Position numbers and translations under genes: made by a program. The notes beneath the pieces were generated by a model. That model was given only the letters and a program-made list of their open reading frames with translations, did no database searches and was not told where the DNA came from. From Styela clava (taxonomy: Eukaryota), in the NCBI RefSeq assembly GCF_964204865.1, contig NC_135260.1, forward strand, positions 15,770,478 through 15,834,477: a stretch of DNA of 64,000 nucleotides, read 5' to 3'. How positions within the stretch are numbered: the stretch's first letter is position 1; the number at the start of each line of letters is the position of its first letter. This document shows, in pieces, positions 41,209 through 64,000 of this stretch.

Positions 41209-41350
41209 CTGAATGTAAGAAATTGAAATCGGTTCCTCTGATCTTTTTCGTTAAAATTTTAGGTTGCTCACAAAAGTGCATAGCAATTATAAAAAAAGTG
41301 ATTCATTGACATTTTAAATTGTCATACTCAAATTACCGCCATCAACTTAC

Positions 41351-41417
41351 AAACTTCTCCGATTTCTTGAAGATTGTCAAATGAACAACAGGCCGTTGTA
41401 CCAAGGGTTGCACAAAC
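41351..41417 (-). CDS. DDC: DDC-like exon 6: VCATLGTTACCSFDNLQEIGEV + 1 nt.
   Basis: Acceptor ttaactcag|GTT. Donor T|GTAAGT. Matches human [21 protein letters not shown]. Confidence 0.8.
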
Positions 41418-41706
41418 CTGAGTTAAAAAGAAGACGGTTTTAAAACATATTTCATTCACTACAAATATAACCATGCGAATTGCGTATATTTCAGTTCGAG
41501 ATTCAATTTGCATTAATTTATTATGAGCGTACAACAGCATTTCTCACTCTTTGTCGCGGTCAATTTTACTGATTGTGAACGTATTTGTCCATAAATAATA
41601 GGTGTATTTTAGTCAATTTTCAGAATATATCTCTAGATTGTGATAAAGCATGTTCGACTGAAAAATTTATTCAATATTTCTGTGAGTAATAATATTTAAA
41701 ACTCAC

Positions 41707-41825
41707 ATAAAATGGTATTCTTCCATCATCTTTGTCTTTTTCCATTGCCTTTTTTAATGCTTCTCCTCTAACTGCAATATCCTTATCAACAGTCACTTTA
41801 TGTAAATGCACCATTGCTATGAGAC
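41707..41825 (-). CDS. DDC: DDC-like exon 5: (C)LIAMVHLHKVTVDKDIAVRGEALKKAMEKDKDDGRIPFY.
   Basis: Acceptor ttttcacag|GT. Donor TAT|GTGAGT. Matches human [39 protein letters not shown]. Confidence 0.8.
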
Positions 41826-42229
41826 CTGTGAAAACTTACAATTATTATTTTATTCATTTCGCCTTGAGATTTTTGGTTTTCAAAAAAAATGCGCTATGCT
41901 CCAAAGTGGGCAAGTTTGTCCACAATAAGCATTCTTGTAAGTCAGATGTAAATATTAAAATTATATCTTCGTGTTGAATATTTTGAAATCTACAGTGCAG
42001 TGCACTTTTGTAGATACTAGCACTTCAGATAAAGATATAAAAATATAATATTCATAAAAGAGCAAGTTCGTTACGTTAAACTTAATTTTGTATGCTTCAA
42101 AATTGTTCTGAACGCAGCCGTCTTGATTTTGAAGTAATTGGAAACTGGGCCATCTTATGTTATAAGTCTGTGTAAACTATCATAACGATATCTCGGGGAA
42201 ATATTCGTTGGTGTAAATGTTACAAAATT

Positions 42230-42464
42230 GGCCGCTTCCGTAGTATGTGAACCAAGATGGCGGACACCGGAACGTAGTATGTTTACCAGGTTAGGGTTAG
42301 GCCATAATTCTATTTCAATTTTCCTTATTTTAGTTCTATTACGAGTTCGGGAACTAGCCAAGTGACTCCCGTAGTATTTGTACCTGAAATTTGGCCTAAC
42401 CCTAACCTGAAAGGCATACTACGTTCCGGGTCCGCCATCTTGGTTCACATACCACGGGAGTACC
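42230..42464. mobile_element. MITE family A, copy 4 (long form), in the intron between DDC exons 5 and 4.
   Basis: GGCCGCTTCCGTAGTATGTGAACCAAGATGGCGGACACC…CCGCCATCTTGGTTCACATACCACGGGAGTACC. Flanks ACAAAATT and CAAAAATG. The internal sequence matches 21647–21884. Confidence 0.65.
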
Positions 42465-42708
42465 AAAAATGCAATATACTGATTTGCAATTAACTTTAAG
42501 CAATTCACTTTCGCTTACAGTCGAATGATGGAATGTGGCCTTGAATCGATTCATTTAAAAGTGGTAGTTTCATTCGAAGTCTTTGCTTTTAATAACTGGG
42601 GCCAAGTTCAGTTTCATATCATCATGTAAAGCACTTGTTTAATTCGGGAGATCGCATGCATTTGCCGCCACCTCGGAAACCACGCTATTGATTATGCATA
42701 AAACTCAC

Positions 42709-42867
42709 ATGCTCTTTCTACCGATGAATGACTATATTCTGATGTGTATGCAACAAGTTTTGAGGCAAGCTCATGTTGTGAAATGTTAGGATATATAGCT
42801 TCCAATTTTTTCAGTGTTTTTGTCCTTGCTGCCAGAATTGTCATAATGGTTGCTTCGCTAGCGGTAC
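42709..42867 (-). CDS. DDC: DDC-like exon 4: (G)TASEATIMTILAARTKTLKKLEAIYPNISQHELASKLVAYTSEYSHSSVERA + 1 nt.
   Basis: Acceptor tttttttcag|GT. Donor GCAT|GTGAGT. Matches human GSASEATLVALLAARTKV…KLVAYSSDQAHSSVERAG. Confidence 0.82.
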
Positions 42868-43174
42868 CTGAAAAAAAATTGACAGATATATTTTCATTGA
42901 GAGAATTTATTTCAAATAACCGGTAAAGGAAATATTAGATTGGTTTTAAAGAATCAAAAATCACTCAGCTAATTGGTCTCACTATTCAACAATGGAATAA
43001 ATGTGGTACAAAATAAATATTTCCAAGAAATCTTGAATAAAGCTTAGGTCTTCGTTTAAACCTGACTAATCTCGTAACGTGTCGTCATACAAATTGGTTG
43101 AATAATTGTTAACGTCACGTCGAAGCTTTTACAGTATTCCAAATATTTATAATTGCTGTCTAATCTGTCGTAAT

Positions 43175-43250
43175 CATATTTATTTATCCAACACACATAC
43201 TGTTTATATATATATACAATATAGTATGTGTGTTGGATGAATAAATATAT
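43175..43250. repeat. 25-bp inverted repeat or hairpin abutting the donor of DDC exon 3.
   Basis: atttatttatccaacacacatac…gtatgtgtgttggatgaataaatat, with a (TA)n spacer. The exon 3 donor GTATATATAT is at 43260. Confidence 0.7.
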
Positions 43251-43260
43251 ATATATATAC

Positions 43261-43381
43261 CTTGGACAACCCCCAGTCCTGGGCCAACACCTTTGTGTAT
43301 GAAACAGTCAGGCAAACCAATGGCTTTCCCCAGCCAATCGAGCACTACAGTTTCTAATTCGGTACACGATGGACTTGATGC
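43261..43381 (-). CDS. DDC: DDC-like exon 3: [40 protein letters not shown] + 1 nt.
   Basis: Acceptor caattttag|GCA. Donor CAAG|GTATAT. Matches human [28 protein letters not shown]. Confidence 0.82.
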
Positions 43382-43439
43382 CTAAAATTGAAAAGTAACG
43401 CAGGTGAGAACAGATGAAATGAAATCCCTGTCACAGTCT

Positions 43440-43610
43440 GGTGTTATGTTCACAGCAAAACCTGTCAGCATGTGATAGCGCCCCTATCCTGTTAGAGTAG
43501 GGGGTCGGAGCCTCCCCTTCTACTCCTCCCGTGGAATTCGGTGGAAGCCCTAACCGAACAGCTGGTACGTGAGCCACCATGCGGCGGTGGAGAATCCATG
43601 AAGTCTTTGT
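43440..43610 (-). other. GC-rich block of about 170 bp in the intron between DDC exons 3 and 2, with a 7SL/Alu-like GGTGGCTCACG motif. Possibly a SINE or small-RNA-derived element.
   Basis: The minus strand reads ccgccgcatggtggctcacgtaccagctgttcgg…cacgggaggagtagaaggggaggctccgaccccc. Its composition contrasts with the flanks. Track ORF 43431..43637 is probably spurious. Confidence 0.3.
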
Positions 43611-43910
43611 CATTTTATTATCTTTAACCGGATTCAACCCATAAATTCACACATTGTAATCATCGTTAAGGTGGCACCATGCACCAACCGTCAGACCAAC
43701 GCGCATCGTTAACTAGCGTTATTTAGATATGAAGTATTGCTAGGGCCAAATCAGTGTATTTTCTACAGCATGATAATTTTATCACGTCATCAAATGTTAT
43801 CAAGTTATTAATGTGTTATTATTCTTTTAGCCTCTATTTTTGCATGATTTCCACTTTTTTTGTAGGCCTATATTATTTTATCAAATATCTATATCAGGCG
43901 TCCATCTCAC

Positions 43911-44119
43911 CCACGTAAAGCCAATACATGCACAAGCATCAGACAAAATATCTCCGAGTATTGCTGGATAACTCGTTGCACATGGGAAGTAGGCAAAAAA
44001 TCTCGAAGATTGCCAATGAGTCATCCCTTCCATAACGACTTTGTCAAGGTCAGCAAACAAATCTTCCCACTTTTCTGGATGTTGTGGCGCATTCTCGGGA
44101 ATTAACTTTCTCATAAATC
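43911..44119 (-). CDS. DDC: DDC-like exon 2: (G)FMRKLIPENAPQHPEKWEDLFADLDKVVMEGMTHWQSSRFFAYFPCATSYPAILGDILSDACACIGFTW.
   Basis: Acceptor tgtatttaag|GA. Donor TGG|GTGAGA. Matches human [70 protein letters not shown]. Confidence 0.85.
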
Positions 44120-44583
44120 CTTAAATACAATAACATGAACGTTGAATACTAGAATATACAATAAACTCAGTTTGGTTGACATTCAAATAATGTGAAAAGT
44201 CATATAATAATATCTGAATGTGTAACGCATTCAACCCGATATTGCACCTATTAATATATCTCTCTTGGTAGTTCATGTTCGAATCGCAGCATGCTCTGTC
44301 GAAACTTAATTAAAGTTAGTAAGTAGGCCTACGTCAATCTGGTTAGCGACTTAACGGAACCTTATTTTTTCAATCAAAATACACGATTAGAGAACACAAA
44401 TTTATTTATATACAAATGATAATAAATTTTCAAATTGTTTGAAAACCGTGTGTGAATGTTGTAGTATATTTTAAATCTATTCCTCAAAACACCATGTATC
44501 ACACTTATAAAAATTGACTTATGAGTAGCAGTACAGTTAGAAATACCCAACTTTAATCAAACATATAGGTCATCATATTTTAC

Positions 44584-51637: not shown

Positions 51638-51643
51638 TTTATT
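51638..51643 (-). terminator. AATAAA polyadenylation signal overlapping the stop of the pentraxin exon.
   Basis: The minus strand reads GAT TAA ATAAAATGG immediately after the CDS. Confidence 0.55.
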
Positions 51644-52298
51644 TAATCAACACAGTCGGTATCGGGATCCACTGTAACAGATCCTTTCACGGTTACAACG
51701 TCTGGGATCAGATGGAAAAGTGCATCGCTGGGACAATCACAATCATTGTTTTCTAAGACTGAAATTTCAGCATTCGTAAGTTTCTTCGACCACATCATCA
51801 AATTTTCTATTGTTCCGCTGAACGTTTCAGTAGAGGCGGTCCATCCACCTCCCATTTCATCTTGATCTTGACCGATTACTATCGTTCCAAATCCCGCTGG
51901 CAACGACGTTATTCCTGCTAATGTACGCGTAACGTAATGAGTACCGTCGACAAAAAGCTGTACCTCTGTATCAGTAGTCGAGAGGACCCAACAAAAATGA
52001 AAAATATTAACAGTTCCGGCAGTTCTTAAAGAGATCGATGCTGTATTTGTTGTATCATCATTGTCATTTAAAAAAGCAAAGGTATGACTTTCAGGATCGT
52101 CAAAAATAATCTTGATAGCATTGTCGTATGTTTCTGTAGCGTAAGAAAACAGAGTTCCTGATCCGACCGCTGTTCCAGGTGTTACTTTAAACTTGCTGCA
52201 GATTGTAAACTCTGTGAGTTCAGGCATATCTATATCTACCAACAAATAGTTCTCAACTGCTGGTGTACCAGGAAATATGTAACGTGTTTGTGGGCAGG
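51643..52298 (-). CDS. Pentraxin-domain terminal exon: (T)CPQTRYIFPGTPAVENYLLVDIDMPELTEFTICSKF…HFCWVLSTTDTEVQLFVDGT…IVIGQDQDEMGGGWTASTETFSGTIENLMMWSKKLTNAEISVL…DCVD, then stop.
   Basis: Collinear with the CRP/SAP pentraxin fold: FVFPKES…FTVCLHF, the HxCxS/TWxS signature (here HFCWVLS), EFWVDG → QLFVDG, and ILGQEQDSFGG…VNMWDFVLSPDEI → VIGQDQDEMGGG…LMMWSKKLTNAEI. A phase-1 acceptor gaattttcag|CC lies inside the track ORF; the track's M is TTG. The stop TAA overlaps AATAAA. Confidence 0.82.
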
Positions 52299-53347
52299 CT
52301 GAAAATTCAATTTTATATCTTGTTATATTATCGTTCAAAACCAGATATACAATAACACAAAAACTTTAAAAGCTTCGTGAAATTTCCAAGTTTCAATTAC
52401 CAATTATTTCACAAACAACAAGTTGCAATATGAAGGTTTTGCTTCGCCTATGAGTCTGTTTACATTTCATAGAATTTCTACAACTTATTGAAATAGGAAA
52501 TTTTAACACTGATTGTAAAAAAATGCATTTTGCTGAGAATAATTGAAACAGCACATCACCGCGGAGGATCACACGATCTTAAGTGCTACAAAGGCGTAAC
52601 GGTTTATTTATAATTACAAATATTAATGTATTGACAACATTTATTACACCGTAAATCACGAACTTCACTCTCAACAAGGTGAATGTGAAACGCAATCGCT
52701 TCAATCTCGTGAGTTTTTTTTTATAATTATTCACATATATAGTGTCTATTAAAACTTTTCCATGGTCTGTGGGATACTACCGAATTTACTAGAGAGAGCG
52801 GAATTACCATGACGATAGTTTCTTTGTAGCAACTGAAGTTTGAATAGTTGATTTTCAATGAGTTTGTTTCAAATAGGAATGTCTGATCTCGATCTATTAA
52901 ATAAGTCAAAAATTTCTGAAGTGATAAATGTAAGGGCGAGAGAACTTGCATGTTCAGACATTTATGTTCACAGTAACTGCAGGCAGTTCAAACTAGGGAA
53001 CGCAATACAATGTGGAAAGTGGAATGAATTCAGAAATTTAATTCAAAAGTTGTCTTTATCGAACACGACTTTTTAGTTGGTAAAGCTTTGCGATCAGATC
53101 CGTGCTGACAGACAATTTTTTTCATGCTAAATACTGTTTGCCATGTTTGTAGTAACAATGAGTAGTGTTTTGAAATAGCTCTATTTAATAATTTTTGGAC
53201 TAATTGTTTCTGAATTGAATCCAGTTCAAAATTGTGATTCAGATTTGCGACGCATTTAACATCATAAAGTGAACCTCCTGCAACTATGATATTCATATTT
53301 TCTTCAGATTATTGCACCAGAATTTTTGGAACAATTTTAGGGCTTAC

Positions 53348-53476
53348 TTGAGCATATAGCAGCTACGGAGTAAAATCCATCTTCACATACACAACCTTGA
53401 GCTTGTGTCAGCACGTTCAAAATTCTACAAACTTGATTTGTTGTGCATGCTATATTGCCATTAGCACATTCATCAG
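53348..53476 (-). CDS. EGF-like exon A: DECANGNIACTTNQVCRILNVLTQAQGCVCEDGFYSVAAICS, 6 Cys, phase 1-1.
   Basis: Acceptor caattacag|CT. Donor TCAA|GTAAGC. Joined to the pentraxin exon, A+CC gives Thr with no frame break. Carries the CxC…GF/Y EGF signature. Confidence 0.7.
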
Positions 53477-54146
53477 CTGTAATTGACAGTAAAAATTTAA
53501 GCCTATTCGTTATTTCTGTACAAAGCATTGTCAGTTCAGTTCAAACCATATGCTGTTAGGTTTGCAGGACTATGAAAACAATATAACCAAAATATCGGTG
53601 TTTTTTACACTTCAGAATCACATGGCTCTCTCGATTCGTAGTGCACAATTTGTGTACTATTACTGAAATACAACCATTACTTAGGAGGCCATTAAAATGC
53701 CTATTAGTGTCATATATCCATTCCTATTCCCAATACAACTTCCTTTATCTATCATTCTATCTCATAAAAATATTCGGAGTTTACCCAAAGCTAATAAACT
53801 GTGGACAGGTATCGTTATGAGATTTGTGATTGTAATTAAAACACTAGTAAATATAAAATATTGTAGTACCATAAACCCAAGGGTATGAGCAATTCAAGAG
53901 TAGGGGGGTAGTCAGTGCCTTCAAATCTCTCTGGGAAGACTTTATATATTTGTTTGTTTGTCTAGGTTTTGCTGATTTATTGAGTGCATGCTTGTCGTTT
54001 CAAACATATTTTTTAAGTATATCCACATCTTTTTGACCAGTTGCCTTTTTTTTATCAATGTAATCAATAATCAGTAATTTATTTTTTCACCATGCTGAAA
54101 AATACGAATTCTACATACACATTTAAAAAATATATATAAAAAAATC

Positions 54147-54382
54147 GGGGCTCCCGAAGTATGCGAACCAAGATGGCGGACGTCGGAATGTAATATGTGT
54201 ACTAGGTTAGGGTTAGGCCATAATTTTAGGTATAAATACTACGGGAGGCTCTTGGCTAGTCTTCGAACTGATAATAGGACTAAAATAAGAAAAATTGGAA
54301 ACAAATTATCGCCTAACCCTAACCTGTTACCCATGTTACGTTCCGATGTCCGCCACCTTGGTTCGCATACTTCGGGAGCACC
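54147..54382. mobile_element. MITE family A, copy 5 (long form, internal core inverted relative to copies 2 and 4), in the intron between EGF exons B and A.
   Basis: GGGGCTCCCGAAGTATGCGAACCAAGATGGCGGAC…GTCCGCCACCTTGGTTCGCATACTTCGGGAGCACC. 8-bp TSD AAAAAATC on both sides (54139–46 and 54383–90). Confidence 0.7.
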
Positions 54383-54552
54383 AAAAAATCGCATATATAA
54401 AAAAAATTGCAAAGAAGAACAAATAATATATATTATTTAGTAATACGTAAAGTGATCTGAAGTCTTTCACAAACAAGTTTCTTGTGCTTAAAACAAGATC
54501 ATTTCAGACAAAAATATAATAAAATAATTATCAGTATAAAAATACAACTTAC

Positions 54553-54684
54553 CAACACATCCTGCACCAGGCACCACCGAAGGCATATGGTTGGTGTCGC
54601 AAATGCATCGAGCAACAGGACTTCCCGTTTCCTTGGAAATTATGCAGTGGGTGTTGGTTGGACACGTTATTCCCTTACACAAAT
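54553..54684 (-). CDS. EGF-like exon B: LCKGITCPTNTHCIISKETGSPVARCICDTNHMPSVVPGAGCV, phase 1-1.
   Basis: Acceptor ttttttgtag|AT. Donor GTTG|GTAAGT. Confidence 0.7.
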
Positions 54685-56066
54685 CTACAAAAAACGTTCC
54701 TGCTTAATTTAATGGGAACATAATAAGTACTCAGATCTATTTTCAATATTTACAAACAAATGCGCGTTAGGATTTTTCTCAACATATGGTACCAACCAGT
54801 GATGAATCTAACTTAGTGAGTCTTTTTTTTATTTTTTGTGTCATAGTGGGTTTGATACAGGTTTATTCTGTAGTTCTTAAATTCACTGCTGAAAGTGATG
54901 GACACATGCCAAATATTTTAAAATATTAGGCTTTTGAAACAAAATGCAAAAACAGCATGAACCCATCTGTGCCAGGTGTTTCCCATTGTTTAAGTTCACT
55001 TCTATCAAACTAAACATGAGTTAACATCGAATCCGACGAATTTCATCCATTTTTACTGCAATTCTGTCGTCAATTTATCTTTGTTTTTATAGCTTACATT
55101 TCTGAAGGAGTATTGCATTTATTACGATACTATTTGTAGCAAGCTATTCTATTTTTGTGTTCAGAATATTCATTGCAAACTGCCGTGGTGCAATATGGTA
55201 GCAATAAAAATTAACAAGATCACTGCAAACAACATTGAAAGGAATGGATTCGTTATTGGTTTTGATGCTCTGTTTTATATCTGTTAACATGGTTTCTCGA
55301 TAAATAACAAAACATGGACAATTTTAGGCATATGGGATTACGGGAATAGATCATGAAACTCAAACAACTGAATTTTGGATGTGAAATGAAACACGGTGAA
55401 TCACAGTGTGATGGACAAATTGGTGTTGACGGTCACTGATGATCACGTTCGGCTGCAGTATGAAACAGAACACTCACAAGGTGTAAAGAGAATGAAAAAA
55501 ATTAATGGAAAGGTATTGCGGATAATGTTTTTTTTCTAAAGAGATCAACACACAAACATTCAACGACCGTACAGGATATTCAGCTTATGCTGCTGCGAGA
55601 TGGGGCAAAATAAACATTTAATTAACAGAAAGTTGCTGGCATATACGGTACATATTAAATTGGTCATTATTACTGCAATAGCTTAGGTGTTTCAAAAGTA
55701 TGACAGCCCGGATGTTCCTATACATTCGAGTATCTTTTGTTTGGTCATTTCTGGCCCAAGCCTTGTTTAAACTAGGTTTGTGTTTTTTGTAATTTTTTTT
55801 TGTTTGTGTGCTGGTGGGCGGGCACATGATATTTCCCATGTTTTTTTAGGTTTTTTTTTAGGCTTTTTTAAAGATTTTGCTCGCCTTCCAGAATTCTTCA
55901 TTTTAAATCTATCTATCTAAGAATAATTTCAAATTTGGAAAAAAAAAAACTAAAAACTCTTGCACTGTTCGTTTAACTTGTTTGCGGAATACTTGCTCTA
56001 TCGCCAAGGTGCTGTATCCCAATAGCATTTTTTGTCATAACTATAAGGCAACACCACCCGACTTAC

Positions 56067-56207
56067 CTAGGCAGTTCAGGGTATCAGAAGGATCCTTGTA
56101 AAAACCCGTTAAACAGACACAACCTTGCAAATTGGTGGGTGGATCTACAAGGGCACAAACAGCGTTATCCTTGCACGTGGTAGTTCCGGCAGACGAGCAT
56201 TCATCCA
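56067..56207 (-). CDS. EGF-like exon C: VDECSSAGTTTCKDNAVCALVDPPTNLQGCVCLTGFYKDPSDTLNCL, phase 1-1.
   Basis: Acceptor tttgaacag|TG. Donor CTAG|GTAAGT. Paralogous to exons A and E (the QGCVC…GFY motif). Confidence 0.72.
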
Positions 56208-56502
56208 CTGTTCAAAAAATAAAACCAAAGGTTAAACCTGGCCTCATTTGGCGATATTATTATGACCATCCTATATGGTCGTAGATTCAATTTATATTTT
56301 GCCGAATAATACAGGGATAAAAATAAATATAGGAAAATATTGTTCAATTTTCATAAAGACTTCTCATGTATTTAAAATTCATACAGAAGTTAACTCTATA
56401 AATTAAAAATATATATTGAAGTAGTCAATTTGTTTTAGAAGTAACACATTATGTTGATTGTTGTATATTGAGAAGTTTCAACAATAATGCATTTGAATTG
56501 TG

Positions 56503-56571
56503 TGCTACCGAAGAATGTGCACCAAGATGGCGCACAACCTGAGCCCTAACCGATACTTCTGGAGCGCCTTG
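56503..56571. mobile_element. MITE family A, internally deleted derivative of about 70 bp, in the intron between EGF exons D and C.
   Basis: GTGCTACCGAAGAATGTGCACCAAGATGGCGCACAACCTGA…CTTCTGGAGCGCC. Confidence 0.45.
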
Positions 56572-56885
56572 AATTGTTGTCATCCCAATGAAAACTGTAG
56601 CTATGTTTCAAATAGCTCGTCTCCGCCTGAGTTTTCTATATTTTAAACGCTTGAATTTACATGCCAATGTCCATTAATGATAAAAAGGAGTATCCCAATT
56701 ATAAAATCCGAGTAAATCTTTAAATTGTGGAAAAAAAGAGGAAAAATTAAACCAATATATAATTAATGTTTGCCCTGTGATTTCACAAGTTATGAGATAG
56801 AAAGCCAAACTAATTCATTCCAAAGTTCAAGGAATACATTTTGCTACTTTAACTTCTCTATATCATTAGTAGTGTAGAGAAAAAA

Positions 56886-56992
56886 GGCGCTCCAGAAGTA
56901 TGTGCACCAAGATGGCGCACAACCTGATAACCCTGGCACACATACTATGTTCAGGTTATGCGCCATCTTGGTGCACATACTTCGGGAGCACC
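56886..56992. mobile_element. MITE family A, copy 7 (short form), whose end lies 15 bp from the splice donor of EGF exon D.
   Basis: GGCGCTCCAGAAGTATGTGCACCAAGATGGCGCACAACC…GCGCCATCTTGGTGCACATACTTCGGGAGCACC. TSD GAGAAAAA and AAAAAAAA. The exon donor GTGAGTA starts at 57007. Confidence 0.7.
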
Positions 56993-57007
56993 AAAAAAAA
57001 TACTCAC

Positions 57008-57142
57008 AAAAACAGTCAGTACTGGGAGCTGGTTCAGGCAGGTAATTGTCTTTACAGATACATTTTCCAGCTGGTGGCGTAGATAGGTGATTCAAAACTT
57101 TTATTAAATTGGTCCCACAAGATGCCAGTCCATCCAGTGGAT
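57008..57142 (-). CDS. EGF-like exon D: PLDGLASCGTNLIKVLNHLSTPPAGKCICKDNYLPEPAPSTDCF, phase 1-1.
   Basis: Acceptor ccgattgttag|AT. Donor TTTT|GTGAGTA. Track ORF 56844..57149 reads past this donor into an intronic MITE. Confidence 0.7.
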
Positions 57143-57537
57143 CTAACAATCGGAATTTTTGTTACTCTTTCATTGTACTAGAGTTAACTAGCGTTCATTA
57201 ATGCTCAAATTGAAAATGGCGCCGTTTTACTTCTAGAACACCTTTTGGACTTATTTGATATTATCCCTAAACTGTCAAGATTCAGTGGCATTAACCCAAA
57301 AAGATGTGTTGGAAGTACCAGGTTTAGTACTTATCTTTTGTTTTAGGTTTAGATCACGTGTCTGTTTGTAATACGGGATATGACAATTAATATCAGTGTT
57401 GTAGTCACCCGCCACAGTTCATGCAAATGAACTTCCGAACTATCGTTTTACCTACCTAACTTATTCAAAAATAAAAAATCGCCCTCTTATTTATATTATT
57501 TTTATGTATTCATATACAAGTACACAGCTTAACTTAC

Positions 57538-57669
57538 CAACACATACGCTATCAGACGGTTTGTAATAATATCCTTCATCACAAACGCATCCTTGAGCAC
57601 GGGTAGCACCATCGACGATACAGCATGTCGCTTTGGTACAAGTAATACCTGACGTTGCGCATTGATCGT
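57538..57669 (-). CDS. EGF-like exon E: DQCATSGITCTKATCCIVDGATRAQGCVCDEGYYYKPSDSVCV, phase 1-1.
   Basis: Acceptor caaaatttag|AC. Donor GTTG|GTAAGT. Confidence 0.72.
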
Positions 57670-58315
57670 CTAAATTTTGAATGTTGATATTGAAGACCAT
57701 TATGTTTGAGATTCAATAGTTGTGTCAGAAGTTAAATATATATATTAGTATATAACTTTTAAACAAATTGAACAAAATGAGATTTTCATTAGCTTCTATT
57801 TCGAGAAAGGCCTCGTTGGGTAAACACAGGTTTGTGAAGTCGTAGTTTGGAATGTTTCTATTGATGCTGATATTGGAATCGACATTTGACTCGGTGTCGC
57901 AAAAAGGAAATTAAGAAGGCGCTTGCATTGGCCAAAGTTTGTTGGTTTTTTTTTATAACTTGTGGATAAGACGGAGGGCTTTTTTCAGCTTGGAGTCGGG
58001 TAGCCAAAGTCGGCATTTCTGTCTGCCTGTATTCGGAATCCTTTTTTAAGTATCGATCCTAAATATTTGTACGATTTTTTTCCCCAACAGCACTAGATTA
58101 AAAATCTAGTTCATGTCGCATACCAGATTAAGCTAGCCAGTAATACCTACTTTTCGCGCTGCGTGGACGTGGCAGTCCCCCTACGAACTACGAACCAACA
58201 CGAAACCTGTGGATTTGACAGTACATTGAGAACAGTTTTAATTTACGTTTAATTTTTTGTATCAAGAATTCGCATCAGTCAGCAGTGATAGAGAAATTAG
58301 AAATGTAAAACAAAC

Positions 58316-58447
58316 CTATACATTCATGGTTTTCAGTAGCATGAGGCATGTAGTTGGCATCACATTCGCATTTTCCATTTGAAAGAACACCTCCTACTGG
58401 ATTTATTACACATTGTGCGTTTACGCATGATGGGTCGCATGCAGTCG
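58316..58447 (-). CDS. EGF-like exon F: TACDPSCVNAQCVINPVGGVLSNGKCECDANYMPHATENHECI, phase 1-1.
   Basis: Acceptor tttgacttgaag|CG. Donor ATAG|GTTTGT. No ORF in the six-frame track covers this exon; it was found by translating the minus strand. Confidence 0.65.
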
Positions 58448-58834
58448 CTTCAAGTCAAATAACGAGAAATAAAGAGGTTAGTTATTAAACACCAATACCC
58501 ATATGGTTCTATAAGCACCATGAACCACGCTGCAAAATAATCTTTAAAAACGCTTCTCTCAAAACCATTTAGGTTTAGAGCACTACCATAACAAGTAAAC
58601 ATTTAAAATCGACTGATGCGCTAGTTAAGAAGCAAATCAACCTTTGTCTCAACAACATCAACAATTTAGGATAACGTTCTATAAACCCATCTTCGTGTCT
58701 AGAAATATGTCATTCGTTAAGGATATAGGAGCGGTCAAAGACAACTATTAGTTATCAGAGTGTAAGATATAGGCAAAAAATTAATGAGAAAGGGAGTAGA
58801 TATAAAATATAATCAGGAAAAAAATAAAAATTAC

Positions 58835-58963
58835 AATAGCATCCAGCCCCGTCCGCTCCAGTTGGCAAGTATCCTTTATCGCATTTGCAACTTCTTTTCT
58901 CGGTAGCTTTGTCAAATACACAAACAGCGTTTGCTCCACAATCAAAACCAATACATGTATTTA
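58835..58963 (-). CDS. EGF-like exon G: NTCIGFDCGANAVCVFDKATEKRSCKCDKGYLPTGADGAGCY, phase 1-1.
   Basis: Acceptor tatttgtttag|TA. Donor TATT|GTAATT. Confidence 0.68.
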
Positions 58964-59388
58964 CTAAACAAATACAGATATTTATAATAAAATATAACGT
59001 ACAGCCTTATCGGGATACACAGGTTGTTCACAACGCCTTTCCAAAATTCAAAAATGTAACAATCAATCGATAATATTTTCAACTGTAAAGAACCCTTATG
59101 GTCACAATGTATGCATATATATAAAAAAAATGGAATTAATGCTACGTAATACAATATTACGGCATTGTACGAATTTGCTAAATTCAAATTAGCAATAACG
59201 TTGACAATTACAAAAAGGTTAGAATCTGAATAATTTAAAATGGGTAAAATTAGAGAATGCAAATGTTGGTTCGCGCGAAATAAATATATTTAGATGCACT
59301 AATAAAACCAATCGAAGTATATTTGCTTTGTAAAGTTAACAGGTGCTTATATCGATGTTACAAACAGTGAAGTTTTGAAGGAATTTAC

Positions 59389-59517
59389 CGCTGCATGTTT
59401 CTCCTTCATCAATAATAGTATTTTCCGTTGGACAATAACATTCTTCAAAGCAACTCCCCTCGTGAATCACACAAATTGAATCCTCGCTGCAAACTTTTCC
59501 ACTTTTACAAGTTTTTT
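59389..59517 (-). CDS. EGF-like exon H: KTCKSGKVCSEDSICVIHEGSCFEECYCPTENTIIDEGETCS, phase 1-1.
   Basis: Acceptor ttgcaattccag|AA. Donor AGCG|GTAAAT. Confidence 0.68.
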
Positions 59518-61090
59518 CTGGAATTGCAAATAAATATCACACCGAGCCTTCAAAATAAAATTGTATTGATAGTTTACGAGCATACATCTGTCATTAGTTC
59601 ATGTGAAATTACAAAATCGCACACTTTACAATTCCATTTCCCATTTTTTTTTAAGTCAGTACATGCTCTTGAAACAATATTTAGGAGCATGTAAAGAATC
59701 ACAAAGGAAATGAAAACGAAAACTAAGATAAATGCTTTCCGCTGTATTAAAAAATATGGCAATACACAAATAAATACATAATCGCGGAGGGTAGCGCTGA
59801 GGTAAACACGCGCTGTCATAAACAAGCCGAATCACATCCGCAGAAATATTGTGTGGTGCTGGCAAACCAGTAATAGAAAATATGTTACTCTAACTACGAT
59901 GACTTTTGTCTTAAAAGTAATCACATGAACACTCACATAAGTAAGAACAATTCCGTGAAGCATTAGTAAAACAAAGTCCACAATGTGATATATAAATAGC
60001 CTCATATATACGAACTTGGTGCGATTTTCAAACAATCGGTCTAGCATACAGTCACCTTTGCTGTTTCCTCCACGCCGGGACAAATATGAAAATCTCAATA
60101 ATATTCAACCAATGAATAGTTTTACTTCTAACAGATACTAAACATGTTGAGCAATAGATGTAATCAAAGTTCAATGATGTTGTTTATGAATTCTATTTTG
60201 CAAATTTACGAATGTGTGTGTCTGTTCATCCATTATATCGTAGATCGACCTAGCTCATGGAGTCCACTTTTATTTAAATAACTCAAGTAATTGCATTTGT
60301 GTCGACAGAGTTGTATAAGTTTGGAGACGAGCAATACTATTCGGTTCAGTTTAAAAAAACATATTTATTTGTCGCGTACCTTGGTACAAACCCGAAACAA
60401 CTTTATTGATTTTCGCATTTATAATCTTTGCAGTTAGTATGATCTAATCTAATAAATTAATGTCATTAAATGTTGTTTCGAGTAGATATCTGATTTCAAA
60501 CTCAAGCTCGAGTCCGAAGACATGATAAGCAACATCAGGCATAACATATATGCTCACAATACAAGATACCACAATTGGGAAATGCACAAACATATCATAC
60601 TGTGCACTCATGTATATCAGCATACAATTCCTTTAACAGGAAATATCTGGAATCTTCTTTGTCTCAAGCAACTATAAATTTCCTGTCAAAATAATCACAA
60701 ACCAATATTCGAACAACCGCAATCGCTTTTACGAAGAACAGATCAGTGAGTCATATTTGGAACTCATATTATTGTGCAAAGCTTCCGATTTCGATTCTTT
60801 GTAGAAAAATCACGTAAGGCAATAAGTTTATAGCACAAACTGTATATATTCCTTTCCTATTATTACCTGCTGCAGATGCTGTGCATATAAATTTCAAACC
60901 CAAATGCAAAATTGTCATTCAACTATTTTGCTTGTACAACAAAAAGGGATAACAGTAATTTGAAGCGGCACACATACTAATTTCTCATTACCAATCAATA
61001 AATCTTTGGAAAAATATTATAACTATCTCATTTTTGACAACCAGAGGGGGGAAATTTAGTAAAAATTTGATAGGCATATAGTATACTCAC

Positions 61091-61277
61091 GGTCAAGTGG
61101 AGGATCAACTGTACAAACTTCGCAAAGTCCATGAAAAATGTCATCACATGATTTATCATCAATCCATGCATGATCAAACCAGTCCGGATTTAACAATGAA
61201 ACTAGACAAGTGCTTGTGACGTCACTGGGACTACCCGGTTTCCAGTCCACTGCACTACTTCCGGTATTTAAAGCAGT
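61091..61277 (-). CDS. C-type-lectin-like domain, C-terminal half exon: TALNTGSSAVDWKPGSPSDVTSTCLVSLLNPDWFDHAWIDDKSCDDIFHGLCEVCTVDPPLD + 1 nt, phase 0-1.
   Basis: Follows the CTLD pattern W..G.P…C…..W.D..C…..LCE. The EPN/QPD and WND Ca/sugar positions are degenerate here (KPG, WID). Acceptor ttacacgaag|ACT. Donor GACC|GTGAGT. Joined to EGF exon H, C+AA gives Gln. Confidence 0.6.
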
Positions 61278-62677
61278 CTTCGTGTAAAAGAATGAAAAAA
61301 AAAATATTTTATTTGAAAATAATTTAGGCAGTGGGAGCTTTGGGGATACGCAGGCCAAACCTTCGTTCCTGTTGTGACTGAACTGCTTGCCGACTAATGG
61401 CAGATTTCGACTGCTTGTCTAAATTTTCATATGTCGAGCTCATAGCACCAAAACCTAATTCTCAAAGTGTTTTATATCGTCTATTACGGTAACAGTTGCA
61501 CTCACGATTTTTTGAATCCGTAAACTGTCCGCAGGATATTTGCACCTGCATACTTTTGCACTCATCGTCATTTGCACCCACAGATGTTAGCACCAGATTG
61601 GAAATCAAGACAGATTACTATTTGTAATTTGCTTGTATTCCTGGTTAGTGTTGCTACGTTTTTTGCAATCATTGCTGGTTACAATCCCATCCCACTTTTT
61701 CTTTTTGTTGGTCATTTTCTTTCAACGAAGTAACGCAAACGTAGTCGAATTTACGGTGATTTTCTAGTCAGTACACATAGGCAATCATATCGTACGAAAA
61801 CAGGCCACAAATAAATTTACAACGTCAGAGTTAATTAACTAATAATGCAAGACAAGAGAAACGTCAATAGCGAACAATGAAAAAAGAGAAAACTGAGAAC
61901 GTGGGTGCATATTTCCGCGGTTGCAACCGTGCGTTGATAAAACTGTGCCTGGGGGCAAACATTCATGGGCACAAAAGTATGTAGGTGCAAATACCCTGGA
62001 TGAAATTTTCTGGTGCGAACCGTCAATCATATTATAACGCGTGGATGGTTACTGAGATGAGAGCAAACAGTCTCTAATGAAAAGACCTATAAAATAAACC
62101 TAATTTTAGCTCAATTTCCATTTATATAACCTAAAACTAGTTAGGCCAGACGAGCACAACTTTTTATGTACGATGAGATTAAAAAATTTTCAGGTAAATC
62201 TATACTTTATTTTAAATCCTATAGCTTCCATTTTCGATTGAAGTTTTGCTCGTTATATTTTGATCAGGGATTCAAATAAGTTGTAGCAACTAACCCCATC
62301 ACCGGCAACAAACGAAGTTCCACTTTTTCGAAACCCTGTGTATGTAATGACATCACTATCAAGTGTATATCCATTCACTTTGAAGTAATAAAGAATTTTC
62401 CTGTAATAAAGTTCATTCTATTTAATATTATCCTATTACATTCTATTTAATAGACTTGTTGTGTTTATTACTTATGCATGTCTGAAAGTGTTAAAAATCC
62501 CTGTTGAGAATGAGTATTTTACTTTCCCACGAAAGAATAATAATCGTACTGGTGTTTATTCTGTTGTAACAAATTTATAAACATTCTCAAAAACATTTCA
62601 AGTTTTCGGTAAGAAGTTGAGCCGTTGATAAAACAAACTTTCTCGCAAATTCAAAATAAAAACTGTTACTTCAAAAC

Positions 62678-62820
62678 TGATCCTGTATTGACAGCCTGTA
62701 TAGCGAGTTTTCCACCGTGCTCTTGACAAATCCGATCGGTTACATGGTATGCACCTGGCGGAGTCAGAAAATATTCACACCCGTTTTTAGGATCAAATTT
62801 TGGAATAGCTGGAGGATATC
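62678..62820 (-). CDS. C-type-lectin-like domain, N-terminal half exon: (G)YPPAIPKFDPKNGCEYFLTPPGAYHVTDRICQEHGGKLAIQA(VNTGS). The 3' boundary is uncertain: a phase-0 donor at 62693 (GCT|GTCAAT) or 62678 (TCA|GTTTTG).
   Basis: The C.YF……C…GG.LA.I pattern matches the start of a CTLD. Acceptor tacattttacag|GA is phase 1 and matches the upstream CTLD-C exon. A middle WIGL segment is not confidently located. Confidence 0.45.
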
Positions 62821-63312
62821 CTGTAAAATGTACATAAATTATTGGCACTAACCAACGATTAAATAGGTGGTTTATATTATTACTACCACCACCCCGATCA
62901 TTGTTCCGAACAAGTCGTCACATGTACGTTCGGACTACTTATTGTTTGCAATAATCGAATCCTTATTGAATCACTATATTCTATAAAATTCATTCATCAT
63001 GTGGTAGGTAGGGAGTATGAAACCCGAGACCGAGATTTTAAAAAGCCGGCTTACTTGGCGCAAAATTCATTGAATCGGGTACTTTTAATTCGAAACATGT
63101 AAGTTCAGTTATTTTGGGTGGATACATCTGTGATATTTTAAACACCCGTTGTATACTAGAACTGTTATGCTGTCGTATATATCAATGTCCACATACGAGC
63201 ACTATTATTTTTTTCTTTTTCGGCGAAAGACAGGATAGTACGTTGTTTTTTCTCTTATTTTTATATAAAAGAAATTAAAATAAACCGTGAAACTACATGA
63301 TAAATACCATAC

Positions 63313-63472
63313 CAACGGGAACCTCACAAAGCCCGAACTCTGTTGCCCAGCATGGATTATCATATATTAATACAGAGCCACTGTCGTCTCTGAGATATCC
63401 GCAATCATAATCACTAGTTGTTGCCGAAGGTTGGTTTGGAGCCCAAGGAGTTTGTGTATGTTCAGAATTTAT
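63313..63472 (-). CDS. Second CTLD C-terminal half exon: INSEHTQTPWAPNQPSATTSDYDCGYLRDDSGSVLIYDNPCWATEFGLCEVPV + 1 nt, phase 0-1.
   Basis: Acceptor tgttatag|ATA, directly after an in-frame TAG. Donor GTTG|GTATGG. Has the same 0-1 phase class as the other CTLD-C exon. Its N-terminal half and the gene's 5' end must lie beyond 64000. Confidence 0.5.
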
Positions 63473-64000
63473 CTATAACAGTAATATAACAGTTTCTTAG
63501 TATTTCACCCAAGCATATGTAAATTCACACGGTCACACACTGGTTTAATTTAATAGTTTTGTAGTTAGGGCGTTGGGCTGAACCTAGTTAACGTCCTAGG
63601 TTAGAAAGTCCATCTACAGCAGTCAACTACAGAACCTCGCCGATGACTCTCAACCGAAGCAGTTATTCCTTCTACTAGGCTCCTATTAATTAATAGCATT
63701 ATTAATTGCTTCGAATTATTTCGATAACATACTATTTATTCATTTTTTGGGGGGCACGGAGGAGCATTATTTTTTGAAATTCTTGGGTACTTCTGAACTC
63801 ACCGGCAGTACACAAAGAGCTAAGTCGCAGTATAGCTGATATAAATTATACATAGCGTTATTATTTTTTTTAATCACATTTGTTTTCTACAATAATTTGG
63901 ATGGTGTAAACTAAGAGCAGCCCATGATAAAAATCGATTAAGCTACACGAAAGCCCAAAACTTCCCCTTCATGACGCAAAGACTCACCACGTCACCCCAC

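What the first reader, a model, noticed from the sequence alone, without database searches (positions are those of the whole stretch)
51643..63472. Mosaic gene encoding two C-type lectin domains, eight EGF modules and a C-terminal pentraxin domain, assembled from phase-1 exons
On the minus strand, one CTLD C-half exon, a CTLD N-half and C-half pair, eight EGF-like exons and a terminal pentraxin exon can all be spliced with canonical AG and GT sites into one open reading frame. Every junction I reconstructed restores a sensible codon: G+GA, C+AA, G+TA, T+CG, G+AC, G+AT, T+TG, G+AT, G+CT and A+CC. None creates a stop. All EGF exons are symmetric phase 1-1, the class expected for shuffled extracellular modules. 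Two carbohydrate or pattern-recognition folds (CTLD and pentraxin) on one polypeptide separated by an EGF stalk suggests a secreted or membrane pattern-recognition receptor, but its function cannot be inferred from sequence. The CTLD Ca/sugar positions are degenerate (KPG, WID), so its ligand may not be a sugar. The gene's 5' end, signal peptide and first CTLD half lie beyond 64000.
Basis: partly seen in the sequence, partly recalled or inferred. Interest (0 to 1): 0.85.

Follow-up and report, generated by a model that had tools for sequence, protein, structure and literature searches.

The report
Sea-squirt lectin–EGF–pentraxin mosaic gene
The region holds most of a real sea-squirt (Styela clava) gene for a secreted protein with two lectin-like domains, a rod of EGF modules and a pentraxin head; the gene model is already in RefSeq as an uncharacterised protein, so it is a tidy case of exon shuffling rather than a surprise.

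Summary
On the minus strand, 63472-51643 carries 13 GT-AG exons, not 12. They translate to 772 aa, identical to residues 133-904 of Styela clava RefSeq XP_039272614.2 ("uncharacterized protein LOC120346894", 904 aa). The full protein is signal peptide, EGF-like module, CTLD1, CTLD2, 8 EGF-like modules, pentraxin, with no transmembrane segment. The pentraxin domain is well supported: Pfam 70-74 bits, fold TM 0.8-0.88 to NP1, CRP and SAP, and the Ca-binding DN and DQD ligands kept. Both CTLDs are true CTLD folds but lack the EPN/QPD and WND sugar/Ca motifs (QPS and SPS instead). The EGF modules are recognisable only by cysteine pattern and weak profile hits, and EGF5 has lost one disulfide pair. 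Only two other S. clava loci share the architecture; none of the 150 best hits listed from 1.84 billion cluster representatives does. The most likely role is a soluble bridging or recognition protein, which is inferred, not shown. Novelty: a new variant of known mosaic lectin/pentraxin proteins. Interest is low to moderate.

The parts
63313..63472 (-). Exon (160 nt, phase 0 to 1): C-terminal third of CTLD1 (residues 133-185; long-loop region with QPS at 63436-63425 in place of EPN, and IYDNPC at 63367-63350 in place of WND..C).
   Evidence: In the alignment to the Mincle CRD, EPN aligns to QPS.
62670..62820 (-). Exon (151 nt, phase 1 to 2): N-terminal third of CTLD2 (residues 186-236; beta1, alpha1 with conserved Cys, GGxLA motif).
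62295..62400 (-).
   Evidence: tblastn of XP_039272614; splice sites; needed to keep the frame.
61091..61277 (-). Exon (187 nt, phase 0 to 1): C-terminal third of CTLD2 (residues 272-333; GSPSD at 61235-61221, WIDDKSC at 61166-61146). The intron position and phase at its 5' edge match those of the CTLD1 exon at 63472.
   Evidence: CTLD2 model pLDDT 88.3; Foldseek to Langerin CRD E 5.8e-9.
59389..59517 (-). EGF-like exon 1 (129 nt, phase 1-1; residues 334-376; 7 Cys; most conserved EGF between paralogues, 57%).
58835..58963 (-). EGF-like exon 2 (129 nt, phase 1-1; residues 377-419; 6 Cys).
58316..58447 (-). EGF-like exon 3 (132 nt, phase 1-1; residues 420-463; 6 Cys).
57538..57669 (-). EGF-like exon 4 (132 nt, phase 1-1; residues 464-507; 7 Cys, CC doublet conserved in paralogues).
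57008..57142 (-). EGF-like exon 5 (135 nt, phase 1-1; residues 508-552; only 4 Cys). Cys1 and Cys3, which pair with each other in EGF domains, are replaced by Leu and Lys; the paralogues keep both.
56067..56207 (-). EGF-like exon 6 (141 nt, phase 1-1; residues 553-599; 6 Cys).
   Evidence: Best sub-threshold Pfam hits are EGF_3 (16.3 bits) and Pvs28 (16 bits).
54553..54684 (-). EGF-like exon 7 (132 nt, phase 1-1; residues 600-643; 6 Cys).
53348..53476 (-). EGF-like exon 8 (129 nt, phase 1-1; residues 644-686; 6 Cys).
51643..52298 (-). Terminal exon (656 nt, enters in phase 1): the whole pentraxin domain plus the stop codon (residues 687-904). Ca-ligand motifs are YDN at 52131-52117 and GQDQD at 51873-51859. 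The core disulfide cysteines lie in FTICS (52209-52195) and HFCWV (51999-51985). There are four extra Cys (CPQT..., DCDC, C-terminal C). ATTAAA/AATAAA overlap the TAA stop.
   Evidence: Pfam Pentaxin 74 bits; PDB phmmer hits to Limulus SAP, NP1 and CRP; the 21 best fold matches are all pentraxins; motif coordinates; poly-A signal.

Best explanation
Shown: window 63472-51643 (minus strand) is the 3' 85% of one protein-coding gene of the ascidian Styela clava, LOC120346894. It encodes a 904-aa, very acidic protein with 72 cysteines in its mature part. The order is signal peptide, EGF-like module, CTLD1, CTLD2, eight EGF-like modules, C-terminal pentraxin domain. There is no membrane anchor, so it is secreted. 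Whole modules are bounded by phase-1 introns. The two CTLDs share an internal intron at the same position and phase, so the gene was built by tandem duplication of a three-exon CTLD unit, serial duplication of 1-1 EGF exons, and capture of a single-exon pentraxin module of the type found in S. clava and Halocynthia short pentraxins.

Inferred mechanism: the protein works as a soluble two-headed bridging or recognition molecule. The pentraxin head keeps the Ca2+-ligand residues (D-N and D-Q-D) and is the likely Ca2+-dependent ligand-binding end. The CTLD pair has lost the canonical Ca2+/sugar site and probably binds a protein or a non-canonical ligand. The non-Ca-binding EGF array is a spacer rod tens of nanometres long (my estimate from the module count). 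The proposed function is opsonin-like or agglutinin-like cross-linking of a target to host cells or matrix in haemolymph or tunic. I put the anatomy at about 0.95 and this mechanism at about 0.4.
For: Anatomy.
- The 13 GT-AG exons give a translation identical to XP_039272614.2 residues 133-904.
- Two further S. clava loci are collinear with it: P0002/P0005 at 41% identity over the full length, and P0156 with four EGFs.

Secretion.
- The only hydrophobic 19-mer is residues 1-25, and the C-terminus is acidic.

Pentraxin domain.
- Pfam Pentaxin scores 70-74 bits against a cut-off of 25.
- PDB phmmer gives Limulus SAP 6e-13, NP1 1.8e-11 and CRP 5.5e-10.
- In those alignments CRP D60/N61 align to D/N, E138-Q139-D140 to D-Q-D, Q150 to E, and Cys36/Cys97 are kept.
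- The model has pLDDT about 85-95 over the domain, and its 21 best Foldseek hits are all pentraxins, TM 0.69-0.88 normalised to target chains of similar length.

CTLDs.
- CTLD1 scores Pfam Lectin_C 36.7 bits against a cut-off of 22.6, and matches the Mincle/MBP-A CRDs at 4e-9.
- CTLD2 scores 38.5 bits against an HMM built from 27 unrelated CTLDs.
- The CTLD2 AF2 model has pLDDT 88.3 and matches Langerin, DCIR, CL-K1 and TC14 at E 6e-9 to 4e-7, TM about 0.7.
- The Ca-site-2 residues are degenerate in both CTLDs.

EGF modules.
- Seven of eight show the six-Cys pattern, and the module profile hits only EGF domains in the PDB (NELL2 0.003, CD93, MSP1, thrombomodulin).

Support for a recognition role.
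- The closest pentraxin relatives are S. clava 'jeltraxin-like', 'CRP-like' and 'neuronal pentraxin-like' proteins.
- Another close relative is Halocynthia roretzi 'CRP c', which carries the same CPQT-type pentraxin module on a collagen-like stalk, a collectin-like design.
- The family is lineage-restricted and diverging fast, as is typical of invertebrate immune lectins.
Against: No expression, localisation or binding data exist for this locus; no paper mentions it. The sugar-binding residues of both CTLDs are lost, which weakens the 'lectin' reading. The EGF modules fail every Pfam threshold, and their structure model is of low confidence (pLDDT 42-78). EGF5 has lost a disulfide. The acidic, EGF-rich, N-glycan-free make-up fits a matrix protein just as well, and the EGF profile resembles NELL, CD93 and thrombomodulin. 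CRP Phe66, a phosphocholine-pocket residue, aligns to Ile and Glu147 to Thr, so the ligand class cannot be read off. The CTLD2 model was built from an alignment made of CTLDs and therefore leans toward that fold.
Confidence: 0.55

Rival explanations
1. It is a structural or adhesive extracellular-matrix or tunic protein in the manner of SVEP1/polydom, NELL or the thrombomodulin/CD93 group. On this reading the CTLD pair and the pentraxin (LamG-like) domain mediate protein-protein contacts with integrins, other matrix components or cellulose-tunic proteins, and immunity plays no part.
For: Canonical sugar/Ca sites are lost in both CTLDs. The EGF module profile is closest to NELL1/2, CD93 and thrombomodulin EGFs. 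Net charge is about -63, with 72 Cys and no N-glycan sequons. NCBI's automatic name for the paralogue is 'SVEP1-like'. A transcript annotated as SVEP1 is enriched in the anterior endostyle of S. clava (PMC9953650); its identity with this family is unknown.
Against: No vWA, CCP, HYR, TSP or other matrix-assembly domains, and no RGD/KGD. The pentraxin domain is closest to short humoral pentraxins rather than to the SVEP1 or adhesion-GPCR PTX domains; ADGRG4 ranks 21st. The family has diverged strongly between paralogues (41% identity overall; per-domain values), which I read as atypical of core matrix proteins (inference).
Confidence: 0.3
2. The locus yields two or more products: a CTLD-EGF protein and a stand-alone short pentraxin transcribed from its own first exon within intron 12. 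On this reading the 904-aa model is a read-through artefact of gene prediction.
For: In the newest RefSeq release the paralogue XP_039273934 was cut from a 705-aa mosaic to a 230-aa pentraxin-only model. S. clava has many stand-alone pentraxins starting with the same CPQT..FP module. Intron 12 contains an ATG-initiated, phase-1-compatible mini-ORF with a hydrophobic stretch (52470-52401, MKCKQTHRRSKTFILQLVVCEII|gtaatt).
Against: That mini-ORF is one of 11 chance-level candidates in 1 kb, and its conservation was not examined. The current RefSeq model for this locus (version .2) is still full length and exactly matches the window. Three loci keep the same collinear order with phase-compatible junctions. 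The truncated paralogue model starts at an internal Met inside an EGF exon and has no signal peptide, so it looks like a partial model.
Confidence: 0.08
3. It is a decaying duplicate (an unprocessed pseudogene, or a gene under relaxed constraint) with no function of its own.
For: EGF5 has lost two cysteines. CTLD2 is too divergent for Pfam. The ligand motifs are degenerate. There are 10 amino-acid differences between the two RefSeq versions of this protein.
Against: 772 codons stay open across 13 exons with all 24 splice dinucleotides canonical. The two cysteines lost are the Cys1-Cys3 pair, so no unpaired Cys is created and the mature protein keeps an even 72 Cys. The Ca ligands and core disulfide of the pentraxin are intact. 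Both modelled domains fold with high confidence.
Confidence: 0.05

Closest known systems
RefSeq XP_039272614.2, 'uncharacterized protein LOC120346894' [Styela clava]
   Same: It is the same gene. The window translation equals residues 133-904 exactly. Version .1 differs at 10 residues.
   Different: Nothing differs structurally. The record is an automated, unnamed prediction with no experimental or literature annotation.
S. clava paralogues LOC120339170/LOC120339454 (XP_039263183, XP_039263518.2; another chromosome) and XP_039273934.1 (same 22-Mb chromosome)
   Same: Same order: EGF, CTLD, CTLD, EGFn, PTX. All EGF cysteines are aligned, GQDQD is invariant, and the extra Cys in EGF1 and EGF4 are conserved.
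   Different: 41% identity. One paralogue keeps a QPD motif in CTLD1 and the full disulfide set in EGF5. XP_039273934.1 has only four EGFs and has lost the long-loop disulfide of CTLD2.
Short pentraxins (human CRP/SAP, neuronal pentraxins NP1/NP2, Limulus SAP-like pentraxin; S. clava 'jeltraxin-like' and 'CRP-like'; Halocynthia roretzi 'CRP c')
   Same: The pentraxin jelly-roll fold, the core disulfide and most Ca2+ ligands. The tunicate members share the CPQT..FP start and the C-terminal CxC...C cysteines.
   Different: Here the domain is the C-terminal module of a 904-aa mosaic, not a stand-alone protomer. The PROSITE-type HxCx[ST]Wx[ST] signature is not kept (HFCWVLST). Ring assembly is unknown.
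Selectins and the group XIV CTLD proteins (thrombomodulin, CD93, CLEC14A, CD248)
   Same: A CTLD is followed directly by EGF modules that act as a stalk. CD93 and thrombomodulin EGFs are among the few PDB hits of the EGF profile.
   Different: No CCP/sushi repeats, mucin region, transmembrane helix or cytoplasmic tail. There are two CTLDs, a terminal pentraxin, and non-canonical CTLD sites.
[quoted passage not shown]
   Same: EGF arrays and a pentraxin domain are combined in a secreted mosaic. NCBI auto-named the paralogues 'SVEP1-like'.
   Different: No vWA, CCP, HYR or ephrin-receptor-like domains were detected, and the pentraxin is terminal rather than internal. The resemblance is a best-hit label, not orthology.
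Branchiostoma lanceolatum CAH1255098 ('MRC1'; CTLD-PTX-CTLD-CTLD-CTLD)
   Same: It is the only protein outside S. clava, among the 150 best of 1.84 billion representatives, that also combines CTLD and pentraxin domains.
   Different: Different order, no EGF stalk, and the pentraxin is internal. It appears to be an independent shuffling event.
Collectins, ficolins and C1q (works like, not a member)
   Same: The design is a recognition head held on an extended stalk in a soluble protein. Halocynthia 'CRP c' puts the same pentraxin module on a collagen-like stalk.
   Different: The stalk here is an EGF array, not a collagen triple helix. No MASP-binding or oligomerisation motif is evident.

Membership tests
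Pentraxin domain (Pfam PF00354) | Profile match above the curated threshold | tested here: met
   70.4-74 bits against a cut-off of 25, profile positions 16-167 of 194.
Pentraxin domain (Pfam PF00354) | Flattened beta-jelly-roll fold superposable on CRP, SAP and NP1 | tested here: met
   AF2 model pLDDT about 85-95 over the domain. Foldseek: NP1 6ype E 2.8e-14 TMt 0.88, CRP 1gnh TMt 0.81, SAP 1sac TMt 0.83. The 21 best hits are all pentraxins.
Pentraxin domain (Pfam PF00354) | Conserved intrachain disulfide (CRP Cys36-Cys97) | tested here: met
   FTICS and HFCWV align to CRP ftvClhf and vhiCtsw. Both Cys are nearly invariant in the 51-sequence alignment.
Pentraxin domain (Pfam PF00354) | Double Ca2+ site ligands (CRP D60, N61, E138, Q139, D140, E147, Q150) | tested here: inconclusive
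   By alignment the equivalents are D, N, D, Q, D, T and E, so five or six of seven are kept or conservatively replaced and E147 becomes T. Ca2+ binding itself was not tested.
Pentraxin domain (Pfam PF00354) | Pentraxin signature H-x-C-x-[ST]-W-x-[ST] (recalled from PROSITE PS00289) | tested here: not met
   The sequence is H-F-C-W-V-L-S-T. The tunicate subfamily consensus also lacks the signature.
Pentraxin domain (Pfam PF00354) | Cyclic pentameric (or other ring) assembly | not testable with these tools
   No multimer prediction or experiment was available.
C-type lectin-like domain (Pfam PF00059) | Profile match above threshold | tested here: inconclusive
   CTLD1 scores 36.7 bits against 22.6 when scanned alone, but only its last 53 residues lie in the window. 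CTLD2 has no Pfam hit, and the paralogue's CTLD2 scores 13.5 bits. An HMM built from 27 unrelated CTLDs scores CTLD2 at 38.5 bits, and CTLD2 matches TC14 lectin 1byf at E 0.0026.
C-type lectin-like domain (Pfam PF00059) | CTLD fold (two helices, two antiparallel sheets, long-loop region) | tested here: met
   The CTLD2 model has pLDDT 88.3 and pTM 0.85. It matches Langerin CRD at E 5.8e-9 with TM 0.69/0.76, and also lithostathine, DCIR, CL-K1, Mincle and TC14. Caveat: the MSA was composed of CTLDs.
C-type lectin-like domain (Pfam PF00059) | Four core cysteines (two disulfides) | tested here: met
   Both CTLDs align at the alpha1 Cys, the 'EDC' Cys, the 'WND..C' Cys and the 'LCE' Cys.
Ca2+-dependent carbohydrate-recognition CTLD (true C-type lectin) | EPN or QPD motif plus WND and the Glu of site 2 (MBP-A E185, N187, E193, N205, D206; numbering recalled) | tested here: not met
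   CTLD1 has QPS, Tyr at the E193 position and Y-D for WND. CTLD2 has SPS, S/T at the E193 position and IDD.
EGF-like domain | Six cysteines with C1-C3, C2-C4, C5-C6 spacing and a C-x-C before the [FY]-containing hairpin | tested here: met
   Seven of eight modules have all six aligned Cys; C2, C4, C5 and C6 are invariant. EGF5 lacks C1 and C3.
EGF-like domain | Curated profile match (any Pfam EGF family) above threshold | tested here: not met
   The best scores are hEGF 18.2, EGF_3 16.3, Pvs28 16 and EGF_MSP1_1 14.2 bits, all below their cut-offs. The module profile against the PDB gives NELL2 EGF E 0.003, and all 11 hits at E<=1 are proteins I recognise as EGF-type or EGF-like (alignments seen only for NELL1/2 and CD93).
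Calcium-binding EGF (cbEGF) | [DN]-x-[DN]-[EQ]-C1 and the C3-x-[DN]-x4-[FY]-x-C4 consensus (recalled) | tested here: not met
   No module carries the consensus on inspection of A3. EGF_CA scores 9.8 bits.
Selectin / group XIV CTLD receptors | CCP repeats or mucin stalk, transmembrane helix and cytoplasmic tail | tested here: not met
   No Pfam Sushi hit. No hydrophobic segment other than the signal peptide.
SVEP1/polydom | vWA, multiple CCP and HYR domains with an internal pentraxin | tested here: not met
   Pfam finds only Pentaxin/Laminin_G_3 (and Lectin_C in the paralogue).
Phase-1 exon-shuffled mosaic gene (Patthy class 1-1 modules) | Each module bounded by phase-1 introns, with symmetric 1-1 repeat exons | tested here: met
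   CTLD1 ends in phase 1. CTLD2 spans phase 1 to 1, with internal phases 2 and 0. The eight EGF exons are 1-1, and the pentraxin exon enters in phase 1.
Single transcription unit | Transcript evidence joining all exons | not testable with these tools
   Only the RefSeq model is available. No RNA-seq access.

The most novel reading that the evidence does not exclude
The three S. clava loci could be a stolidobranch-specific class of humoral pattern-recognition molecules. Such a molecule would physically fuse a pentraxin head to a C-type-lectin-fold head on an EGF rod, so that one polypeptide links two recognition arms that vertebrates keep on separate molecules (pentraxin to C1q, collectin to MASP). 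It could act as an opsonin or complement-recruiting bridge, with the number of EGF exons (4 versus 8) tuning its reach.
Probability: 0.15. Interest if true: 0.55.

Novelty: new variant of a known kind. Interest (0 to 1): 0.25.

Why it matters
If the inferred role holds, this small family would be another example of how invertebrate chordates build innate-recognition or matrix proteins by shuffling phase-1 modules. Here a pentraxin exon is mounted on an EGF stalk behind two CTLDs, next to a Halocynthia relative that mounts the same exon on a collagen-like stalk. That is useful for comparative immunology and for teaching exon shuffling: it shows a clean 1-1 exon array, an internal CTLD duplication with a conserved intron, and paired loss of a disulfide. 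It does not open a long-standing question. The sequence and gene model are already public, the domains are all known types, and no function has been demonstrated.

Tried and rejected
1. It was resolved by the missed exon.
2. A word-indexed homology search with CTLD2 alone found nothing. The family-profile search found only the two S. clava clusters plus one weak bacterial CTLD protein.
3. phmmer of the whole EGF region against the PDB gave no hit; only the single-module profile gave weak EGF hits.
4. I tried to fetch the 5' exons and the paralogue loci with the look-up of encoding contigs for P0003, P0002 and P0005. None is on record, so the 5' end was taken from the RefSeq protein only.
5. 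tRNA and Rfam scans of the window gave no hits.
6. Literature searches for the locus, for Styela pentraxins and for CTLD+EGF+pentraxin architectures found nothing specific.
7. Selectin, thrombomodulin-group, SVEP1, cbEGF and true (sugar-binding) C-type-lectin membership were considered and rejected on missing defining features.
8. A membrane-receptor reading was rejected because there is no TM or GPI-type segment.
9. No tandem paralogue lies in the rest of the window: tblastn hits of both paralogue proteins are confined to 51646-63472.
10. The EGF7-8 part of the second model has pLDDT 42-78 and was not used for fold inference.

Full report
**What is in the sequence.** The window is AT-rich (33-42% GC) and intron-rich, so it is eukaryotic DNA. 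On the minus strand between 63472 and 51643, stop-free segments carry recognisable CTLD, EGF-like and pentraxin peptide motifs.
- The eight EGF exons are 129-141 nt and symmetric phase 1-1.
- The pentraxin domain is a single 656-nt terminal exon entered in phase 1.
- One junction fails. The CTLD2 'N-half' exon (62820-62670) ends in phase 2 and the 'C-half' exon (61277-61091) begins in phase 0, so they cannot be joined in frame.

**Identity of the gene.** The draft product hit a Styela clava protein at 99% identity over its whole length: XP_039272614, 'uncharacterized protein LOC120346894', 904 aa.
- Mapping that protein back with tblastn exposed a thirteenth exon at about 62402-62289. Its precise borders are 62400-62295: tttattacag|G ... 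GGG|gttagt, 106 nt, phase 2 to 0.
- With this exon the CDS in the window is 2319 nt, or 772 codons plus TAA. Every intron is GT-AG.
- The translation is identical to residues 133-904 of the current RefSeq version XP_039272614.2. It differs at 10 residues from version .1.
- Residues 1-132 are not in the window; there is no match in 63473-64000. They comprise the signal peptide MTPMPFLFIFVCGFLDVAVGA, an additional EGF-like module, and the first two-thirds of CTLD1.
- ATTAAA/AATAAA overlap the stop codon.

**Domain tests: pentraxin.**
- Pfam Pentaxin scores 70-74 bits against a cut-off of 25.
- phmmer against PDB chains gives Limulus SAP-like pentraxin at 6e-13, NP1 at 1.8e-11 and CRP at 5.5e-10.
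- In the CRP alignment, D60/N61 align to D/N, E138-Q139-D140 to D-Q-D, Q150 to E and E147 to T. Both core cysteines are kept.
- An AF2 model of EGF7-EGF8-PTX, built from a 51-sequence alignment, has pLDDT about 85-95 over the pentraxin part. Its 21 best Foldseek matches are all pentraxins: NP1 TMt 0.88, CRP 0.81, SAP 0.83, PTX3 and ADGRG4-PTX.
- The classical HxCx[ST]Wx[ST] signature is not kept (HFCWVLST).
- The domain belongs to a tunicate subfamily that starts with CPQT..FP and ends with CxC...C.

**Domain tests: CTLDs.**
- CTLD1 passes Pfam Lectin_C when scanned alone (36.7 bits against 22.6). It matches the Mincle and MBP-A CRDs at 4e-9 to 1e-6.
- CTLD2 is not seen by Pfam, and the paralogue's copy scores only 13.5 bits.
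- However, an HMM built from 27 unrelated CTLDs scores CTLD2 at 38.5 bits.
- CTLD2 also hits the tunicate lectin TC14 weakly.
- Its AF2 model (pLDDT 88.3, pTM 0.85) superposes on Langerin, lithostathine, DCIR, CL-K1, Mincle and TC14 CRDs at E 6e-9 to 4e-7 and TM about 0.7. The caveat is that the alignment fed to AF2 consisted of CTLDs.
- Neither CTLD keeps the Ca2+/sugar site. CTLD1 has QPS, Tyr and Y-D; CTLD2 has SPS, S/T and IDD.

**Domain tests: EGF modules.**
- No module reaches a Pfam threshold; the best scores are 14-18 bits to hEGF, EGF_3, Pvs28 and MSP1 EGF. The whole EGF region finds nothing in the PDB by phmmer.
- The 16 modules of this gene and a paralogue align with C2, C4, C5 and C6 invariant and C1 and C3 nearly so.
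- The profile of that alignment hits only EGF domains in the PDB: NELL2 at 0.003, then NELL1, CD93, MSP1, thrombomodulin and betacellulin.
- None fits the cbEGF consensus.
- EGF5 has Leu and Lys in place of C1 and C3. These are the two partners of one disulfide, and the paralogues keep them.

**Whole-protein properties.**
- The only hydrophobic 19-mer is the signal peptide.
- The mature chain has 72 Cys (an even number), 117 D+E against 54 K+R, and no RGD.
- There is not one N-x-S/T sequon, where 6.7 are expected (P about 0.0005). The paralogues are similarly depleted.

**Gene-building logic.** Every module boundary is a phase-1 intron. The last exon of CTLD1 (GDV|INSE) and that of CTLD2 (GDG|TALN) begin at the same alignment column in phase 0, so the CTLD pair arose by duplication of a multi-exon unit. 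The pentraxin is a single exon of the same CPQT type as S. clava stand-alone pentraxins. The same type occurs in Halocynthia roretzi 'CRP c', where it follows a collagen-like Gly-X-Y stretch.

**Distribution.**
- An exhaustive phmmer search of 1.84 billion cluster representatives found only the protein itself and one paralogue cluster as full-length collinear matches. 572 proteins scored at E<=1e-3; among the 150 best that were listed, the others match either the pentraxin or a CTLD alone.
- Among those 150, only an amphioxus protein (CAH1255098; CTLD-PTX-CTLD3) also combines the two folds.
- A family-profile search of 5.8 billion sequences added no member.
- Cluster look-ups show at least three S. 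clava loci. These are this one, LOC120339170/LOC120339454 on another chromosome (41% identity, eight EGFs), and XP_039273934 on the same 22-Mb chromosome.
- The older 705-aa model of XP_039273934 has four EGFs. Its current model is cut to the pentraxin alone.
- Identity to the paralogue is highest in EGF0, CTLD1, CTLD2 and EGF1 (45-58%). It is lowest in EGF3, EGF7 (29%) and the pentraxin (34%).
- Unannotated tunicate genomes could not be searched, so 'Styela-specific' is provisional.

**Interpretation.**
- Shown: this is one secreted mosaic gene, already modelled in RefSeq, with verified pentraxin and CTLD folds and an EGF-like stalk.
- Inferred: it is a soluble two-headed bridging or recognition protein. 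The pentraxin is the probable Ca2+-dependent binding end and the CTLD pair is a non-canonical binder.
- I favour an opsonin/agglutinin-like role (about 0.4). The pentraxin's nearest relatives are humoral short pentraxins, a sister design on a collagen-like stalk exists in Halocynthia, and the family is lineage-restricted and fast-diverging.
- A matrix or adhesion role (about 0.3) fits the acidic, EGF-rich, sugar-site-less make-up equally well.
- Separate transcripts (about 0.08) and decay (about 0.05) are less likely. A scan of intron 12 for an alternative signal-peptide exon gave only chance-level candidates, the best at 52470-52401.
- No paper mentions the locus. Reviews note tunicate pentraxins only generically (PMC5465252).

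**Verdict.** It is a lineage-specific recombination of well-known modules whose sequence is already public, so I rate it a new variant of a known kind with interest about 0.25.

Noticed in passing
window 30945-33572 (-): An uninterrupted 876-codon open frame encodes a complete major vault protein, with Pfam Vault, Vault_2/3/4 and MVP_shoulder domains. It appears to be a single-exon (intronless) MVP gene, lying in the most GC-rich part of the window (39-42%). This could reflect retroposition or intron loss.
   Followed up: partly
window 20855-24180 (-): Several exons of an arginase/agmatinase-family gene (Pfam Arginase, 83 and 49 bits on two exon translations).
   Followed up: partly
window 38978-44120 (-): Exons of a pyridoxal-dependent (aromatic amino acid/histidine-type) decarboxylase (Pfam Pyridoxal_deC, 71 and 49 bits on two exon translations).
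   Followed up: partly
window 54147-54382, 56886-56992, 56495-56542 (introns of the gene); also about 10401-10485, 21659-21872, 39301-39390, 42243-42452: Short foldback (MITE-like) elements with terminal inverted repeats containing GTATGTGCACCAAGATGGCGCAC. There are 12 arm matches in the window against 0 expected by chance. Three or four copies sit in introns 8, 9 and 10 of the mosaic gene.
   Followed up: partly
window 26426-26893: A minisatellite of 16/48-nt units (GGGTGCAAATGTACGT, about 17 copies) followed by a 62-nt repeat. It stays open in several frames on both strands and gives misleading long ORFs (26116-26797).
   Followed up: partly
window 7019-7391: A perfect 188-nt tandem duplication (2.0 copies, 100% identical).
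   Followed up: no
whole product of 63472-51643 (-) and its paralogues: N-glycosylation sequons are completely absent from the 904-aa secreted protein (0 observed, 6.7 expected, P about 0.0005). The three paralogue proteins are similarly depleted (3, 1 and 0 against 5-8 expected). No explanation found.
   Followed up: partly
window 57142-57008 (-), EGF5: Cys1 and Cys3 of this EGF module have been lost together (replaced by Leu and Lys) while both paralogues keep them. The exon is symmetric 1-1, so it could also be skipped without a frameshift.
   Followed up: partly
window 59461-59438 and 57634-57620 (-): EGF1 and EGF4 each carry a seventh cysteine (GSCFEEC and TCC), conserved in the paralogues. 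This suggests an inter-module disulfide or another pairing that was not resolved.
   Followed up: no
not in window: RefSeq XP_039273934 (same S. clava chromosome): The third paralogue was a 705-aa EGF-CTLD-CTLD-4xEGF-PTX model in version .1. In version .2 it is cut to a 230-aa pentraxin-only 'jeltraxin-like' protein that starts at a Met inside an EGF exon and lacks a signal peptide, so it is probably a truncated annotation.
   Followed up: partly
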